From contig JAUYJX010000036.1 of the NCBI GenBank assembly GCA_030699245.1, positions 752 through 24,751 of the forward strand: 24,000 nt of DNA, given 5' to 3'. Position 1 is the stretch's first letter. Each line of letters starts with the position of its first letter. Positions 6,729-9,519 of the stretch are shown piece by piece. A model generated the notes under the pieces. The model searched no databases. It was given only the letters and a program-made list of their open reading frames with translations, and had not been told where the DNA came from. This stretch comes from a bacterium (GTDB taxonomy: Bacteria > Patescibacteriota > Saccharimonadia > CAILAD01 > JAUYJX01). The translations under genes and the position numbers were made by a program.

Positions 6729-6805
6729 AGAGGAAAAATAATGTGAAAATATCAACTGTAAATGAGTACAATTACAGTATCTATTGAATCATTATTTTGA
6801 CGAGA

Positions 6806-6881
6806 CAGGGTGTAGCTCAGTTGGGAGAGCGCAGCGTTCGGGACGCTGAGGTCGCAGGTTCAAGTCCTGTCACCCTGACCA
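6806..6881 (+). tRNA. tRNA-Pro (anticodon CGG)
   Basis: 76-nt cloverleaf. Acceptor cagggtg/caccctg (C1-G72), anticodon loop ttcggga, T-loop ttcaagt, CCA encoded. Confidence 0.9.
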
Positions 6882-6980
6882 TCCTTCGTTAAAACTACGG
6901 AATGGTAAACCATTAAACTTCACACCTTGTGTTTCGCTTAATTAGTAATATTTTGAAGTTTAATGGGAGGGAAAAAGTTA

Positions 6981-7164
6981 CTCCATAGCCCTGTCTGCTC
7001 TTCGAGCCTGTCTGCCGACAGGCAGGTCTGAGCCCTGAGGCACCGCCCTCAGAGTCGAATGACCGACAGGCAGGTTCATGCGAAGGGTAACCCTGACCAC
7101 CCTTCTCCACTAACTGGCTACGGATGGCAGGCCATAGACTCTTGCCCGGAAGTAAGCTATGAGG
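6981..7164 (+). ncRNA. GC-rich structured element of unknown class downstream of tRNA-Pro(CGG) (candidate ncRNA, leader or integration scar)
   Basis: Closing helix ctccatagc(6981-6989)/gctatgagg(7156-7164). Hairpins at 7006-7023, 7035-7052 and 7082-7105. Internal repeats are detailed in the findings entry for 6872..7164. Strand is inferred from colinearity with the tRNA. Confidence 0.45.
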
Positions 7165-7205
7165 ATAAACCAAACAAAATTAATTAAAATTTTCCAAGTT
7201 TTCAA

Positions 7206-7922
7206 ATGCAAATAATCTACATTAGTTTGCTAACAATTTTAGCCAGCACTATTGGTACAGTTACTGGATTTGGTACCTCAACAATTATGGTGCCAGTCTT
7301 ACTATTGTTTTTTCCTTTGCCTCAAACCCTTCTGCTGGTTGGCATTATCCACTTCTTTGGTGATATCTGGAAACTAACTCTCTTTAAGAGAAAGTGGTTA
7401 TGGAAGGTGCTGTTAGGCTTTGGTATACCGGGGGTAATTGCCAGTTTTTTTGGTGCTAAATTGATTTTTAGTTTGCCCGCTAACCTAATTACCAAAATTA
7501 TAGGTGGTATTTTAGTTGCTTACGGTATTTTTATTATTATTAATCCGGTGTTTAAACTAGCCATAAATTATCTGACCTCAATTATTGGCGGGGTAACTTC
7601 GGGGTTTCTAGCTGGTTTTGGCGGAGTTGGTGGTGCACTGCGAGGACTTTTCTTATCTGCTTATGATCTGCCAAAAAGTACATATATATTTACCTCTGGC
7701 GCGATTGCTTTTGCCATAGATTCAACTCGTATAACCACTTATTTCGCCAATGGTACTAGACTGGATAGTCTGCTGACTGTTGGATTGTTAATTTTTATAC
7801 CTGCTTCATTTATGGGTGCCAAGATCGCTCAAAAAATTGTCAGCAAAATTTCTCAACGCCAACTTCGAATTACTATAGCTATCTTTTTACTAATTGTCGG
7901 AGTTAAGCTAATATTTTTTTAG
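7206..7922 (+). CDS. TauE/SafE (DUF81) family membrane transporter
   Basis: 238-aa polytopic membrane ORF. The Gly-rich TM repeats (TVTGFGTSTIMVPVLLLF..., GGVTSGFLAGFGGVGGALRG) are typical of the family. Confidence 0.75.
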   Translation: MQIIYISLLTILASTIGTVTGFGTSTIMVPVLLLFFPLPQTLLLVGIIHFFGDIWKLTLFKRKWLWKVLLGFGIPGVIASFFGAKLIFSLPANLITKIIGGILVAYGIFIIINPVFKLAINYLTSIIGGVTSGFLAGFGGVGGALRGLFLSAYDLPKSTYIFTSGAIAFAIDSTRITTYFANGTRLDSLLTVGLLIFIPASFMGAKIAQKIVSKISQRQLRITIAIFLLIVGVKLIFF

Positions 7923-8016: not shown

Positions 8017-8832
8017 ATGCCGCTGGGTCAGATTGATAACACCAAGATTTCCGTCTCCTTCAGAGGAGAGGAAATCATCCCCGAAGAGAGTGGCTATCTC
8101 GGCCAGCTGGAATCCAAAAACCAGCATAGGCCAGATATACTGGCTCTGGTCGTCACCGTTTCGGATGAAAGCTACCATGGGTTCATGGTGGATGGGCAAA
8201 AGAACGTCAGCCCTTCTCGCGATCTGAACCAGAAGTCTCTCACACCCGGGATTAAGGTGTTCCGCCAGAAGATGCCGATCAAGTTCTTGAGTCACCTTGC
8301 TGTCTGGCACACAGAGTACGCAGAGAACAATTTGCGATTGCTTAAGTTGGAGCTTGACGGAAGTTTCTGCGTCTGGGAGATCGCTATCATCTCCCAAGAC
8401 GGCTGCTTCTTCCTGACGAAGCAGCGGACTTACGAGAGCCGGTGCTATCGGGACGAGTCGGGTCAGCTGGTTTGCCCTGACTTTGAAAAGTGGCCACAAC
8501 TGGTTCATTTCTTGAAGACTCTAGTGGAATCACCCGAGTCTCTCGAAGCTGTTGAGAGCTGGAGTCCCAAACCGGGGATAGATGGCTCAGACCTAGAGCC
8601 TGGAACTGCCAGAGTCATCTGGTGGAACTGCGCCCAGGGACTCGGGGCCATAGCAGCTCCGGAGGGAGCAGCGCGAGTCCACTGGACAGAGTTGCCAATC
8701 GGTGACGAGCTGGCATATCTGTCCAAAGGACAGCTTGTGAGCTACTCGTGCTTCAAGCCACCCGAGAGCACGTGTGGTCGCTCCACTAGCTTCCAACGAG
8801 AAGCAGTGGCGGTTACGCCCCTCGGTGTCTAG
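8017..8832 (+). CDS. GC-rich hypothetical protein with C-terminal cold-shock-like (OB-fold) region
   Basis: 271-aa ORF with a strong SD. The C-terminus GTARVIWWNCAQGLGAI...ARVHW...LSKGQLVSY follows the CSD pattern GxVKWFNxxKGFGFI..VFVHF..GQxV. The N-terminal ~190 aa are unrecognised. Composition is clearly higher in G+C than the flanks. Confidence 0.75.
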   Translation: MPLGQIDNTKISVSFRGEEIIPEESGYLGQLESKNQHRPDILALVVTVSDESYHGFMVDGQKNVSPSRDLNQKSLTPGIKVFRQKMPIKFLSHLAVWHTEYAENNLRLLKLELDGSFCVWEIAIISQDGCFFLTKQRTYESRCYRDESGQLVCPDFEKWPQLVHFLKTLVESPESLEAVESWSPKPGIDGSDLEPGTARVIWWNCAQGLGAIAAPEGAARVHWTELPIGDELAYLSKGQLVSYSCFKPPESTCGRSTSFQREAVAVTPLGV

Positions 8833-9180: not shown

Positions 9181-9332
9181 CGAAAAATTCCTTTCTCAAA
9201 AACGAATTACATTCTGTTATTTGAAAAGTGTCATATTCGTGGCACAGCCATTGAAAGGAGAACTACTTGTGATAGTTGGAGTACAATAGCATCAGCTATC
9301 GTACAAAGACCTAAGCAATAGTTTGACGACGA

Positions 9333-9410
9333 GGTGGGTGTAGCTCAGCTGGTTAGAGCAACGGGTTGTGGTCCCGTAGGTCGTGGGTTCGAATCCCATC
9401 ACTCACCCCA
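9333..9410 (+). tRNA. tRNA-His (anticodon GTG) with encoded G-1
   Basis: Acceptor gtgggtg/cactcac, an extra 5' G (9333) opposite discriminator C, anticodon loop ttgtggt, CCA encoded. Confidence 0.9.
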
Positions 9411-9519
9411 TTAAACTTCGCTACTTTGCTTAAAGGCGGGTTTAGCGAAGAAATAAAATAAATGAAGGGATGAGAAGTTTATCCGCCAATCGGCGGGAAT
9501 CCCATCACTCACCCCATTA
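9391..9519 (+). repeat. exact 23-bp direct repeat of the tRNA-His 3' end bracketing an 83-bp hairpin-containing insert
   Basis: gaatcccatcactcaccccatta occurs at 9391-9413 and 9497-9519. Between the copies lie the hairpins cttcgcta(9416-9423)/tagcgaag(9443-9450) and ccgcc(9483-9487)/ggcgg(9492-9496). Confidence 0.85.

What the first reader, a model, noticed from the sequence alone, without database searches (positions are those of the whole stretch)
6872..7164. GC-rich structured element after tRNA-Pro(CGG) that contains a copy of the tRNA's own 3' end
About 185 nt of GC-rich sequence sits in an AT-rich intergenic region and is closed by a 9-position helix (6981-6989 with 7156-7164). It contains at least three 6-7 bp hairpins. 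Several segments occur twice: cctgtctgc at 6990 and 7007, ccgacaggcaggt at 7015 and 7063, ccatag at 6983 and 7132. This allows mutually exclusive pairings or reflects an internal duplication. The tRNA 3' end plus trailer accctgaccaTccttc (6872-6887) recurs as accctgaccaCccttc (7090-7105), 15/16 identical. That copy sits in the loop and 3' arm of hairpin 7082-7105. A tRNA 3'-end direct repeat is the classic signature of att sites left by tRNA-targeting integrases, but only ~220 bp lie between the copies and no integrase is present. Alternatives are a co-transcribed ncRNA or processing signal, or a 5' leader of the tauE-like gene whose ATG is 42 nt downstream.
Basis: partly seen in the sequence, partly recalled or inferred. 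Interest (0 to 1): 0.65.

Follow-up and report, generated by a model that had tools for sequence, protein, structure and literature searches.

The report
Nested mobile-element debris behind tRNA-Pro
The GC-rich "structured element" after tRNA-Pro(CGG) is not a dedicated RNA gene or riboswitch but a pile of small selfish DNA repeats nested inside one another, of a kind that lands at the CCA end of tRNA genes in these ultra-small bacteria and, in full-length copies, carries a tiny GIY-YIG nuclease gene.

Summary
No Rfam family matches, and folding is unremarkable (z = -1.9 and -1.6).

The region is a mosaic of dispersed repeat modules.
- A B-type element with inverted-repeat ends starts right after the tRNA CCA. 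It ends in "CGAAGGG-TA" plus a 10-nt copy of the tRNA end.
- It contains an A-type hairpin and a 20-nt palindrome, H. H has 15 intact genome copies and 0 in shuffles.
- H is split by a 45-nt palindrome, M1. M1 in turn carries a nested H.
- This nesting accounts for the internal "duplications" and the competing pairings.

In this 573-kb genome, 9 of 36 tRNAs carry a downstream copy of their own 3' end, and none carries one upstream. A full-length B element elsewhere in the genome encodes an 88-aa GIY-YIG nuclease. Across the order, 15 of 26 such genes abut a tRNA, most with a copy of that tRNA's end.

The window copy has no ORF and is partly decayed. It is probably inert and read through from the tRNA promoter.

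This scan has reported the same phenomenon on other DNA, in at least 7 other genomes. I found no published description. How the elements move is inferred, not shown.

The parts
6806..6881 (+). tRNA-Pro(CGG), intact, with encoded CCA. Its last 10 nt, ACCCTGACCA (6872-6881), are repeat copy DR1.
   Evidence: ARAGORN and Rfam tRNA model, 66.4 bits.
6882..6912 (+). B-left end, TCCTTCGTTAAAACTACGGAATGGTAAACCA. It starts immediately after the tRNA CCA and ends in its own 'CCA'.
   Evidence: Matches CCATCYTWCGYYAARRCTWCRGAMYGG, found in 4 of 60 genomes with 0 reversed-pattern controls. The same module follows tRNA-Trp, -Gln, -Gly, -Leu and -Met. About 22/26 (my hand count) identical to the inverted right end of the GIY-YIG element in G049 (right-end sequence).
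6913..6966 (+). A-type hairpin module. A 13-bp perfect inverted repeat, CCATTAAACTTCA / TGAAGTTTAATGG, spans 6910-6922 and 6954-6966. It sits right after the 'CCA' of B-left.
   Evidence: Inverted repeat I2. The same 'CCA|TTAAACTTC ... GAAGTTTAT' ends occur after tRNA-His, Leu(caa) and Leu(gag).
6967..6989 (+). Spacer gagggaaaaagttactccatagc.
   Evidence: Sequence. Not assigned to any family.
6990..6998 (+). Left half of an outer H palindrome (CCTGTCTGC), split by M1.
   Evidence: Alignment. The intact H is CCTGTCTGCCGACAGGCAGG.
6999..7006 (+). M1 left arm (TCTTCGAG).
   Evidence: Alignment with C11, C33 and copies from genus g19.
7007..7026 (+). Nested intact H palindrome, CCTGTCTGCCGACAGGCAGG. 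It is an exact 20-nt insertion into M1.
   Evidence: A 20-nt gap against 8 M1 copies that lack it. 15 intact H copies in the genome against 0 in 20 shuffles.
7027..7063 (+). Remainder of M1: TCTGAG-CCCTGAGGCACCGCCCTCAG-AGTCGAATGA(C).
   Evidence: The core occurs in 6 of 401 genomes of the class.
7064..7074 (+). Right half of the outer H palindrome (CGACAGGCAGG).
7075..7089 (+). Remnant of the B-right end: ttcatg-CGAAGGG-TA.
   Evidence: Compare CGAAGGA-TA or CGAAGGA-GG directly before the tRNA-end copies at Gln, Met, Leu, C16 and G049.
7090..7099 (+). DR2: ACCCTGACCA, an exact 10-nt copy of the tRNA acceptor 3' strand, discriminator base and CCA.
7100..7137 (+). Second B-left-like module, CCCTTCTCCACTAACTGGCTACGGATGGCAGGCCATAG, again directly after a CCA. 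Its first 6 nt account for the repeat continuing past the CCA.
   Evidence: Similar to the trailers of tRNA-Leu(cag) and tRNA-Gly(gcc).
7138..7164 (+). The MFE fold pairs CAUAG with CUAUG locally instead.

Best explanation
The region 6882-7164 is a stack of small, non-coding remnants of mobile elements that accumulated at the CCA end of tRNA-Pro(CGG).

The frame is an ORF-less 'B-type' element (6882-7089). It has inverted-repeat ends, TCCTTCG... and ...CGAAGGG-TA. It lies between the tRNA's own end and a 10-nt copy of that end (7090-7099).

Inside it sit:
- an A-type hairpin;
- a 20-nt GC-rich palindrome, H;
- a 45-nt palindrome, M1, which has split H at C^CG;
- a second H, which has in turn been inserted into M1.

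A second B-left module follows the tRNA-end copy.

Full-length B elements, one of them in this genome on contig C16, are about 330 bp and encode only an 88-aa GIY-YIG nuclease.

Inferred mechanism: the nuclease cassette spreads into tRNA genes by break-and-repair (homing-like) or transposition-like events. These events keep the tRNA intact by duplicating its end, as mobile endonuclease ORFs do with gene termini in fungal mitochondria. ORF-less derivatives and the palindromes hitch-hike.

The window copy is old: the base before DR2 corresponds to tRNA position 66 and has changed from C to A, and the B-right end is truncated. The copy is probably inert and is simply read through from the tRNA promoter into tauE.

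Shown: the modular anatomy, the copy numbers, the nesting, the association with tRNA ends and with GIY-YIG genes, and one filled-versus-empty comparison for an A element.

Inferred: the enzyme responsible, the direction of the duplication, and transcription.
For: - Modules recur separately and never as a unit. H, M1 and B-left hit other contigs and other genomes independently.
- Exact nesting is visible. M1 copies occur with and without the 20-nt H. M1 is flanked by a split H in this genome and by a split tRNA-Asn 3'-end copy in genus g19, in both cases at C^CGG.
- H has 15 intact copies against 0 in 20 shuffles, and all are intergenic.
- 9 of 36 tRNAs carry a copy of their last 11+ nt within 600 nt downstream, 10 copies in all (tRNA-Gln on C12 has two). 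None has one upstream.
- Filled versus empty site: tRNA-Gln on C12 equals tRNA-Gln on C37 plus exactly 92 nt of A element and a 19-nt repeat.
- The full-length B element on C16 reads CCA|B-left-ATG...GIY-YIG...B-right-TA-tRNA-Gln-like end. Pfam GIY-YIG was scored on the tRNA-Met (C21) ORF at E = 1.3e-15; the C16 ORF matches PF01541 at E = 9.1e-18 in the genome scan.
- Left and right ends are inverted repeats, 18/26 identical.
- 15 of 26 small GIY-YIG genes in 60 genomes of the order lie within about 400 nt of a tRNA on the same strand. Roughly 5% would be expected. 3'-end copies follow ORFs that lie downstream of the tRNA. 5'-end copies precede ORFs that lie upstream.
- Thirteen metagenome tRNAs with an identical 28-nt 3' end have plain trailers.
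- There is no Rfam hit and no exceptional fold.
Against: - No orthologous empty site exists for this particular locus. The genome has no close relative in the collections.
- The window copy has no nuclease ORF, so its link to GIY-YIG rests on shared ends.
- Repeat lengths vary: 8-16 nt for B and 18-23 nt for A. This does not fit a simple fixed-stagger transposase.
- Elements always have the same orientation relative to the tRNA and always abut a CCA. This could also reflect an RNA-level role.
- The M1 core is about 88% identical across families of the order and its arms recur exactly in another order. This could mean functional constraint rather than mobility.
Confidence: 0.75

Rival explanations
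1. It is a functional structured RNA. On this view the modules after the CCA are tRNA-trailer processing or termination signals, or a 5' leader regulating tauE, and the tRNA-end copy acts as a mimic or competitor of the acceptor end.
For: - Modules always have the same orientation as the tRNA and start exactly at the CCA.
- No promoter-like or terminator-like site lies between the tRNA and tauE, so the element is probably transcribed.
- The M1 hairpin is highly conserved across families.
- The tRNA-end copy sits in a hairpin loop.
Against: - No Rfam match, and fold z-scores of only -1.9 and -1.6.
- Distribution is patchy: B-left in 4 of 60 genomes and M1 in 6 of 401.
- tRNAs with the same 3' end elsewhere have plain trailers.
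- The same modules occur away from tRNAs and in either orientation.
- TauE homologues have no such leader.
- The internal 'alternative pairings' are fully explained by nested insertion.
Confidence: 0.12
2. It is the scar of a tyrosine- or serine-integrase island that integrated into tRNA-Pro and was later almost completely deleted. On this view the two tRNA-end copies are attL and attR.
For: - A direct repeat of a tRNA 3' end is the classic att signature.
- The A-type repeats elsewhere in the genome begin in the T-loop, as many att identity blocks do.
Against: - The repeat is only 10 nt.
- The DNA between the copies consists of repeat families found at many different tRNAs, which a site-specific integrase would not target.
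- The genome has a single tyrosine recombinase of Xer-like size.
- Full-length relatives carry GIY-YIG, not an integrase.
Confidence: 0.05
3. It encodes a small protein: the 86-aa ORF at 6913-7173 on the minus strand, or the 42-aa ORF at 7059-7187 on the plus strand.
For: Open frames exist.
Against: - No significant Pfam match: the 86-aa ORF has none, and the 42-aa ORF has only a sub-threshold Usg hit (E = 0.099, 13.2 bits against a 27-bit cut-off).
- The frames run through palindromic repeat modules that occur elsewhere in both orientations and in other frames.
- GC-rich DNA in an AT-rich genome yields long spurious frames.
Confidence: 0.02

Closest known systems
Mobile endonuclease ORFs (mORFs) with terminus duplication in fungal mitochondria (Allomyces macrogynus atp6; Glomus atp6/atp9/cox2/nad3; PMC3630166)
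   Same: A free-standing homing-type nuclease gene (GIY-YIG in Glomus atp9) sits between an intact host gene and a displaced copy of that gene's end. The host genome is small and AT-rich. From memory, GC-rich mobile hairpins accompany these ORFs in such genomes.
   Different: The host genes here are bacterial tRNA genes and the duplicated piece is only 8-23 nt. The element has inverted-repeat ends and abundant ORF-less miniatures. The nuclease is only about 85-90 aa. The window copy has no ORF at all.
Phage T4 SegB, a free-standing GIY-YIG homing endonuclease in the tRNA gene cluster (PMC2330249)
   Same: It is a GIY-YIG nuclease gene embedded among tRNA genes. Its 27-bp recognition site contains the conserved T-psi-C stem-loop motif. 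It drives inheritance of itself together with neighbouring tRNA genes.
   Different: SegB is larger and carries DNA-binding domains. It is phage-borne. It has no terminal inverted repeats, makes no duplication of the tRNA end, and has no miniature derivatives. No cleavage data exist for the proteins here.
Bacterial MITEs and mosaic palindromic repeats (REP/BIME of enterobacteria, Correia/NEMIS, Rickettsia palindromic elements; yeast mitochondrial GC clusters)
   Same: These are short, non-coding, palindromic or TIR-bounded, multi-copy, intergenic elements. They form mosaics and nest in one another, and they are GC-rich in AT-rich genomes.
   Different: There is no fixed-length target duplication. 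The landing site is the CCA end of tRNA genes, or C^CGG for M1. The only Y1 transposase (RAYT-like) in the genome is flanked by a different palindrome, CAAGGCCAGGCCTTG. The putative autonomous partner is a GIY-YIG gene rather than a DDE or Y1 transposase.
Genomic islands and prophages integrated in tRNA or tmRNA genes (att repeats; Williams 2002, from memory)
   Same: A direct repeat of the tRNA 3' end brackets the inserted DNA, and the tRNA gene stays intact.
   Different: The insert is about 0.2 kb instead of kilobases. There is no integrase. The same element families occur at many different tRNAs.

Membership tests
Any Rfam RNA family (riboswitch, ribozyme, sRNA, leader) | Covariance-model match at or near the gathering score | tested here: not met
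   Only tRNAs pass the gathering score in the window. In 6850-7260 at E <= 10 the only hits are a 17.6-bit chance match to toga_FSE and the tRNA end.
tRNA-targeting integrase island (att scar) | Direct repeat of the tRNA 3' end flanking the insert | tested here: met
   ACCCTGACCA at 6872-6881 and at 7090-7099.
tRNA-targeting integrase island (att scar) | Integrase gene, or its remnant, inside the insert or in full-length relatives | tested here: not met
   No ORF with a Pfam match lies in the insert. The genome has one tyrosine recombinase, located elsewhere. Full-length relatives carry GIY-YIG only.
MITE (miniature inverted-repeat transposable element) | Terminal inverted repeats, small size, no ORF, multiple copies | tested here: met
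   B ends are 18/26 identical as inverted repeats. The A module has a 13-bp perfect inverted repeat. M1 arms are TTCGAGTCTGAG and CTCAGAGTCGAA.
MITE (miniature inverted-repeat transposable element) | Fixed-length target-site duplication | tested here: not met
   Repeats flanking B elements are 8, 10, 13, 15 or 16 nt. Those flanking A elements are 18-23 nt. H inserts leave no duplication.
MITE (miniature inverted-repeat transposable element) | A longer autonomous element with the same ends that encodes the mobilising enzyme | tested here: inconclusive
   C16 and G049 carry B ends around an 88-aa GIY-YIG ORF. Whether that protein mobilises the element is untested.
Free-standing homing endonuclease / mORF with host-gene terminus duplication | Nuclease ORF between an intact host gene and a displaced copy of its end | tested here: met
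   Met for the family: C21, C13, C16 and loci L023, L025, L027, L034 and L042-L044. Not met for the window copy itself, which lacks the ORF.
Free-standing homing endonuclease / mORF with host-gene terminus duplication | Presence/absence polymorphism at the same site between otherwise near-identical alleles | tested here: inconclusive
   An A element is present at tRNA-Gln on C12 and absent on C37, with identical tRNA and upstream sequence. No comparison was possible for the tRNA-Pro locus.
Free-standing homing endonuclease / mORF with host-gene terminus duplication | Site-specific cleavage of the empty allele by the encoded nuclease | not testable with these tools
   Requires biochemistry.
REP/BIME mobilised by a RAYT (Y1 transposase) | The RAYT gene is flanked by the same palindrome family | tested here: not met
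   The single Y1_Tnp gene (C4:15041-15373) is flanked by CAAGGCCAGGCCTTG palindromes, not by H.
cis-regulatory leader of tauE | Conserved upstream of homologous genes | tested here: not met
   The three TauE homologues retrieved have unrelated upstream DNA.

The most novel reading that the evidence does not exclude
The roughly 330-bp B element consists of inverted-repeat ends plus a single 88-aa GIY-YIG nuclease gene. It may be an autonomous, minimal bacterial transposon or homing cassette of an undescribed kind. On this reading it lands at the CCA end of tRNA genes and rebuilds or duplicates the tRNA end, so the host survives. Each insertion would create a new CCA landing pad on which further elements stack (A hairpins, B miniatures, and the H and M1 palindromes). 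The window element would be a fossil stack of such events.
Probability: 0.3. Interest if true: 0.8.

Novelty: new variant of a known kind. Interest (0 to 1): 0.5.

Why it matters
The finding turns an apparently enigmatic structured RNA into a readable record of successive insertions. It also adds a well-resolved case to a pattern that this scan keeps meeting in Saccharibacteria and Patescibacteria. In these genomes tRNA gene ends are colonised by tiny GIY-YIG cassettes and their ORF-less derivatives.

If the GIY-YIG protein is the mobilising enzyme, this would be one of the smallest self-mobilising DNA elements known. It would also be a bacterial counterpart of the mitochondrial mORFs.

There is a practical consequence. 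These modules inflate intergenic GC content and predicted structure, create spurious ORFs, and can mislead ncRNA and att-site predictions in genomes of the candidate phyla radiation.

Tried and rejected
- Rfam was searched at gathering and at permissive thresholds. Nothing matched.
- Both strands were folded. The z-scores are not exceptional.
- I looked for the orthologous tRNA-Pro(CGG)/tauE junction. The genome is the only member of its family in the collection. TauE's nearest homologues are in other phyla with no synteny.
- The one metagenome scan, with the tRNA's 28-nt 3' end, returned only non-orthologous tRNA-Pro genes with plain trailers.
- A viral-contig scan with the C16 GIY-YIG protein found no relatives.
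- The hammerhead or other ribozyme reading of 'GAUGAGAAGUUUAU' and of M1 was rejected. The core positions do not fit and there is no Rfam support.
- The RAYT/REP explanation for H was rejected.
- The reverse-transcriptase idea was not pursued. An RT gene lies next to the C16 element, but the G049 copy of the element sits at a tRNA-Gln with no RT nearby.
- Four literature searches found no description of GIY-YIG cassettes at bacterial chromosomal tRNA ends.

Full report
**Observation**

- tRNA-Pro(CGG) occupies 6806-6881 and has an encoded CCA.
- The tRNA-end repeat extends to 19 nt with 2 mismatches (6869-6887 and 7087-7105).
- An 11-mer of the tRNA end with at most 1 mismatch has 3 hits in the window against 0.12 expected.
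- The block 6978-7164 is 58.3% G+C, and its flanks are 17-33%.
- The proposed closing helix has one mismatch and one G-U pair. The MFE fold uses it only partly.
- The fold is not exceptional: z = -1.92 on the + strand and -1.56 on the - strand.
- No Rfam family matches, even at E <= 10.

**The element is a mosaic, not a unit**

A search of the whole genome with 6960-7180 found no second full copy. It found many independent partial matches.

- *H.* The 20-mer CCTGTCTGCCGACAGGCAGG is a GC-rich palindrome. It has 15 intact copies in the genome against 0 in 20 composition-preserving shuffles, and all copies are intergenic.
- *M1.* This is a 45-nt palindromic module, TCTTCGAG-TCTGAG-hairpin-AGTCGAATGAC. 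It recurs on C11 and C33 and in genomes of another family of the order.
- *Nesting.* In the alignment, the window and C11 copies of M1 carry an exact 20-nt insertion, H. Eight other copies lack it.
- *M1 flanks.* In this genome M1 lies between the two halves of another H (CCTGYCTGC | M1 | CGRCAGGCAGG). In genus g19 it lies between the two halves of a tRNA-Asn 3'-end copy (CCGGCCTC | M1 | CGGAGCCA). Both put the insertion at C^CGG.

The region 6990-7074 reads H-left / M1-left / H / M1-right / H-right.

**The tRNA-end copy is a genome-wide theme**

ARAGORN finds 36 tRNAs. Nine of them carry a copy of their last 11+ nt (13-20 nt after extension) within 600 nt downstream, 10 copies in all because tRNA-Gln on C12 has two. 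None has such a copy upstream.

Two families of intervening DNA recur.

- *A-type.* It starts 'CCA|TTAAACTTC'. It ends in '...GAGAAGTTTAT-hairpin-RA' followed by a tRNA copy that begins in the T-loop. It occurs at His, Gln, Leu and Arg.
- *B-type.* It starts 'CCA|TCCTTCG-CYAAAG-CTTCGGA-CTGGCAAGCC'. It ends 'TCCGAAG-CTTTAG-CGAAGGA-TA/GG' followed by an 8-16-nt copy of the acceptor 3' strand with NCCA. It occurs at Gln, Met, Leu and Pro.
- The two B ends are inverted repeats, 18/26 identical.

In the window:

- 6882-6912 is a B-left end.
- 7081-7089 (CGAAGGGTA) is a truncated B-right end.
- 7090-7099 is the exact 10-nt tRNA-end copy.
- 7100-7137 is a second B-left.

The hairpin 7082-7105 is a B-right end pairing with the next B-left end across the tRNA-end copy.

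The 13-bp perfect hairpin at 6910-6966 is an A-type module that sits after the 'ggtaaaCCA' of B-left. All three module left ends in the window abut a CCA: 6881|6882, 6912|6913 and 7099|7100.

**Link to a nuclease gene**

Longer inserts flanked by the same repeats encode a small protein.

- After tRNA-Met on C21, a 451-nt insert with a B-right end carries an 84-aa ORF. It matches Pfam GIY-YIG at E = 1.3e-15.
- On C16, a complete B element reads CCA|B-left-ATG...88 aa...TAG...B-right-TA-CCTTCCGCCCCAGCCA.
- The genome has six or seven such small GIY-YIG genes besides UvrC. Four more of them abut tRNAs on the same strand:
  - C13 has a tRNA-Leu 5' stub, itself plugged by two H insertions, then the ORF, then an intact tRNA-Leu.
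  - C32 has a 90-nt repeat around the ORF plus tRNA-Ser.
  - C9 has a pseudogene before tRNA-Ile.
  - C21 is described above.
- Across 60 genomes of the order, 15 of 26 small GIY-YIG loci have a same-strand tRNA within about 400 nt. About 5% would be expected from tRNA density. Related genomes are not independent samples.
- When the ORF lies downstream of the tRNA, a 3'-end copy follows it. When the ORF lies upstream, a 5'-end copy precedes it.

**Evidence for insertion**

- The two tRNA-Gln(ttg) loci share an identical tRNA and 44 nt upstream. They differ by exactly a 92-nt A element plus a 19-nt repeat.
- M1 occurs with and without H, H occurs with and without M1, and B-left occurs with and without H.
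- Distribution is patchy. B-left with its CCA occurs in 4 of 60 genomes of the order. The M1 core occurs in 6 of 401 genomes of the class, including another order, where it again lies in tRNA trailers. Reversed-pattern controls gave 0.
- Thirteen metagenome tRNAs with the same 28-nt 3' end as tRNA-Pro(CGG) have ordinary trailers.

**What could not be shown**

- No close relative of this genome is available, so no orthologous empty site exists for this locus.

**Mechanism (inferred)**

The closest documented logic is the mitochondrial mORF. There, a nuclease ORF arrives with a replacement gene terminus and leaves the native terminus displaced downstream (PMC3630166). A second precedent is T4 SegB, a GIY-YIG homing endonuclease whose site includes the tRNA T-loop motif (PMC2330249).

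I propose that B cassettes spread by nuclease-initiated break repair, or by a transposition-like step, at tRNA ends. ORF-less miniatures and the palindromes would hitch-hike. Each element end that terminates in CCA would serve as a landing pad for the next insertion.

Three observations do not fit a classical transposase and leave the mechanism open:

- the repeat lengths vary (8-23 nt);
- the orientation relative to the tRNA is constant;
- the left junction is always a CCA.

The arms of M1 resemble the T-loop consensus TTCGAGTC. This may be meaningful, as a nuclease site or a decoy, but it is speculation.

**Function of the window copy**

A promoter-like site (6743-6772) precedes the tRNA. 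No promoter-like or terminator-like site lies between the tRNA and tauE, so the block is probably read through.

- The tRNA itself is intact.
- The base before DR2, corresponding to tRNA position 66, has changed from C to A, which fits a non-functional spare.
- The ORFs across the block have no significant Pfam match, only a sub-threshold Usg hit for the 42-aa ORF.
- TauE homologues have no comparable leader.

I rate the block as inert debris at about 0.75. A functional-RNA reading is at about 0.12.

**Relation to earlier work in this scan**

I reached the GIY-YIG link independently. After that, a look-up showed that follow-up agents had described the same phenomenon in at least 7 other genomes. 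Their descriptions include cassettes at tRNA-Trp, -Gln and -Gly and at ssrA, mobile palindromes, and spare gene ends. Those notes agree with this reading but are not independent evidence. My four literature searches found no published description.

**Verdict**

The element is a new variant of a known kind: MITE-like and palindromic mosaic debris of tRNA-end-targeting GIY-YIG cassettes. Interest is moderate at 0.5, because the underlying family is unusual and apparently undescribed, while this copy is a decayed, ORF-less instance already paralleled elsewhere in the scan.

Noticed in passing
window 9334-9519: tRNA-His is followed by an A-type element (CCA|ttaaacttc...gggatgagaagtttat-CCGCCaatcGGCGG-) and an exact 20-nt copy of its T-loop-to-CCA end. 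This is the same family logic as the finding.
   Followed up: partly
window 9181-9260 (after tRNA-Arg(tct)); also G000 C9 after tRNA-Ala and tRNA-Ile, C48 after tRNA-Phe, C21 after the tRNA-Met repeat: A third trailer family, '...aaaacgaattacattctgttatt...gtgtcat.ttc.tggca..ccat', starts right after the CCA of at least five tRNAs.
   Followed up: no
window 8017-8832 (+): A GC-rich (50-60%) 271-aa ORF with no Pfam match sits between tauE and a tRNA cluster. It looks foreign.
   Followed up: no
G000 C13:20230-20683: A 5' half of tRNA-Leu(caa), positions 1-39, is interrupted by two precise H-palindrome insertions, one of them nested. It lies upstream of a GIY-YIG ORF, which is followed by the intact tRNA-Leu(caa).
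   Followed up: partly
G000 C32:1490-2070: A repeat of about 90 nt (tRNA-Ser 3' end, trailer and H hairpin) brackets a GIY-YIG ORF together with the complete tRNA-Ser(tga).
   Followed up: partly
G000 C4:14990-15600 (-): The single Y1 (IS200-like / RAYT-like) transposase gene is flanked on both sides by pairs of CAAGGCCAGGCCTTG palindromes. This is a separate REP-like family that also occurs next to the C11 copy of H/M1.
   Followed up: partly
G000 C16:1191-2500: A reverse-transcriptase gene (PF00078, 328-aa frame) lies immediately upstream of the full-length B/GIY-YIG element. 'aaatgagacac/gtgtctcattt' inverted repeats lie between them.
   Followed up: no
G000 C13:22481, C32:4876, C42:2572, C53:4271: Four paralogous 40-45-codon ORFs begin M(A/V)(N/D/K)KPVCRQGRL(R/H)(K/N)SY(A/T)YY. 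Their first codons embed an H-like hairpin, CCTGTCTGCCGACAAGGCAGG.
   Followed up: no
L013 (G049 C38), downstream of tRNA-Trp: Three tandem B-left-like units each end in 'ggtaaaCCA' and are followed by the next unit. This suggests stacking of insertions on re-created CCA sites.
   Followed up: no
L079, L082 (G078) and L080, L083 (G084), a different order of the class: The M1 hairpin core is nearly identical there. It is embedded in a longer conserved tRNA-trailer element, 'CCA|ttcgacgcgc...ctttcga.tgtgagctct-CATTCGAG...'.
   Followed up: no
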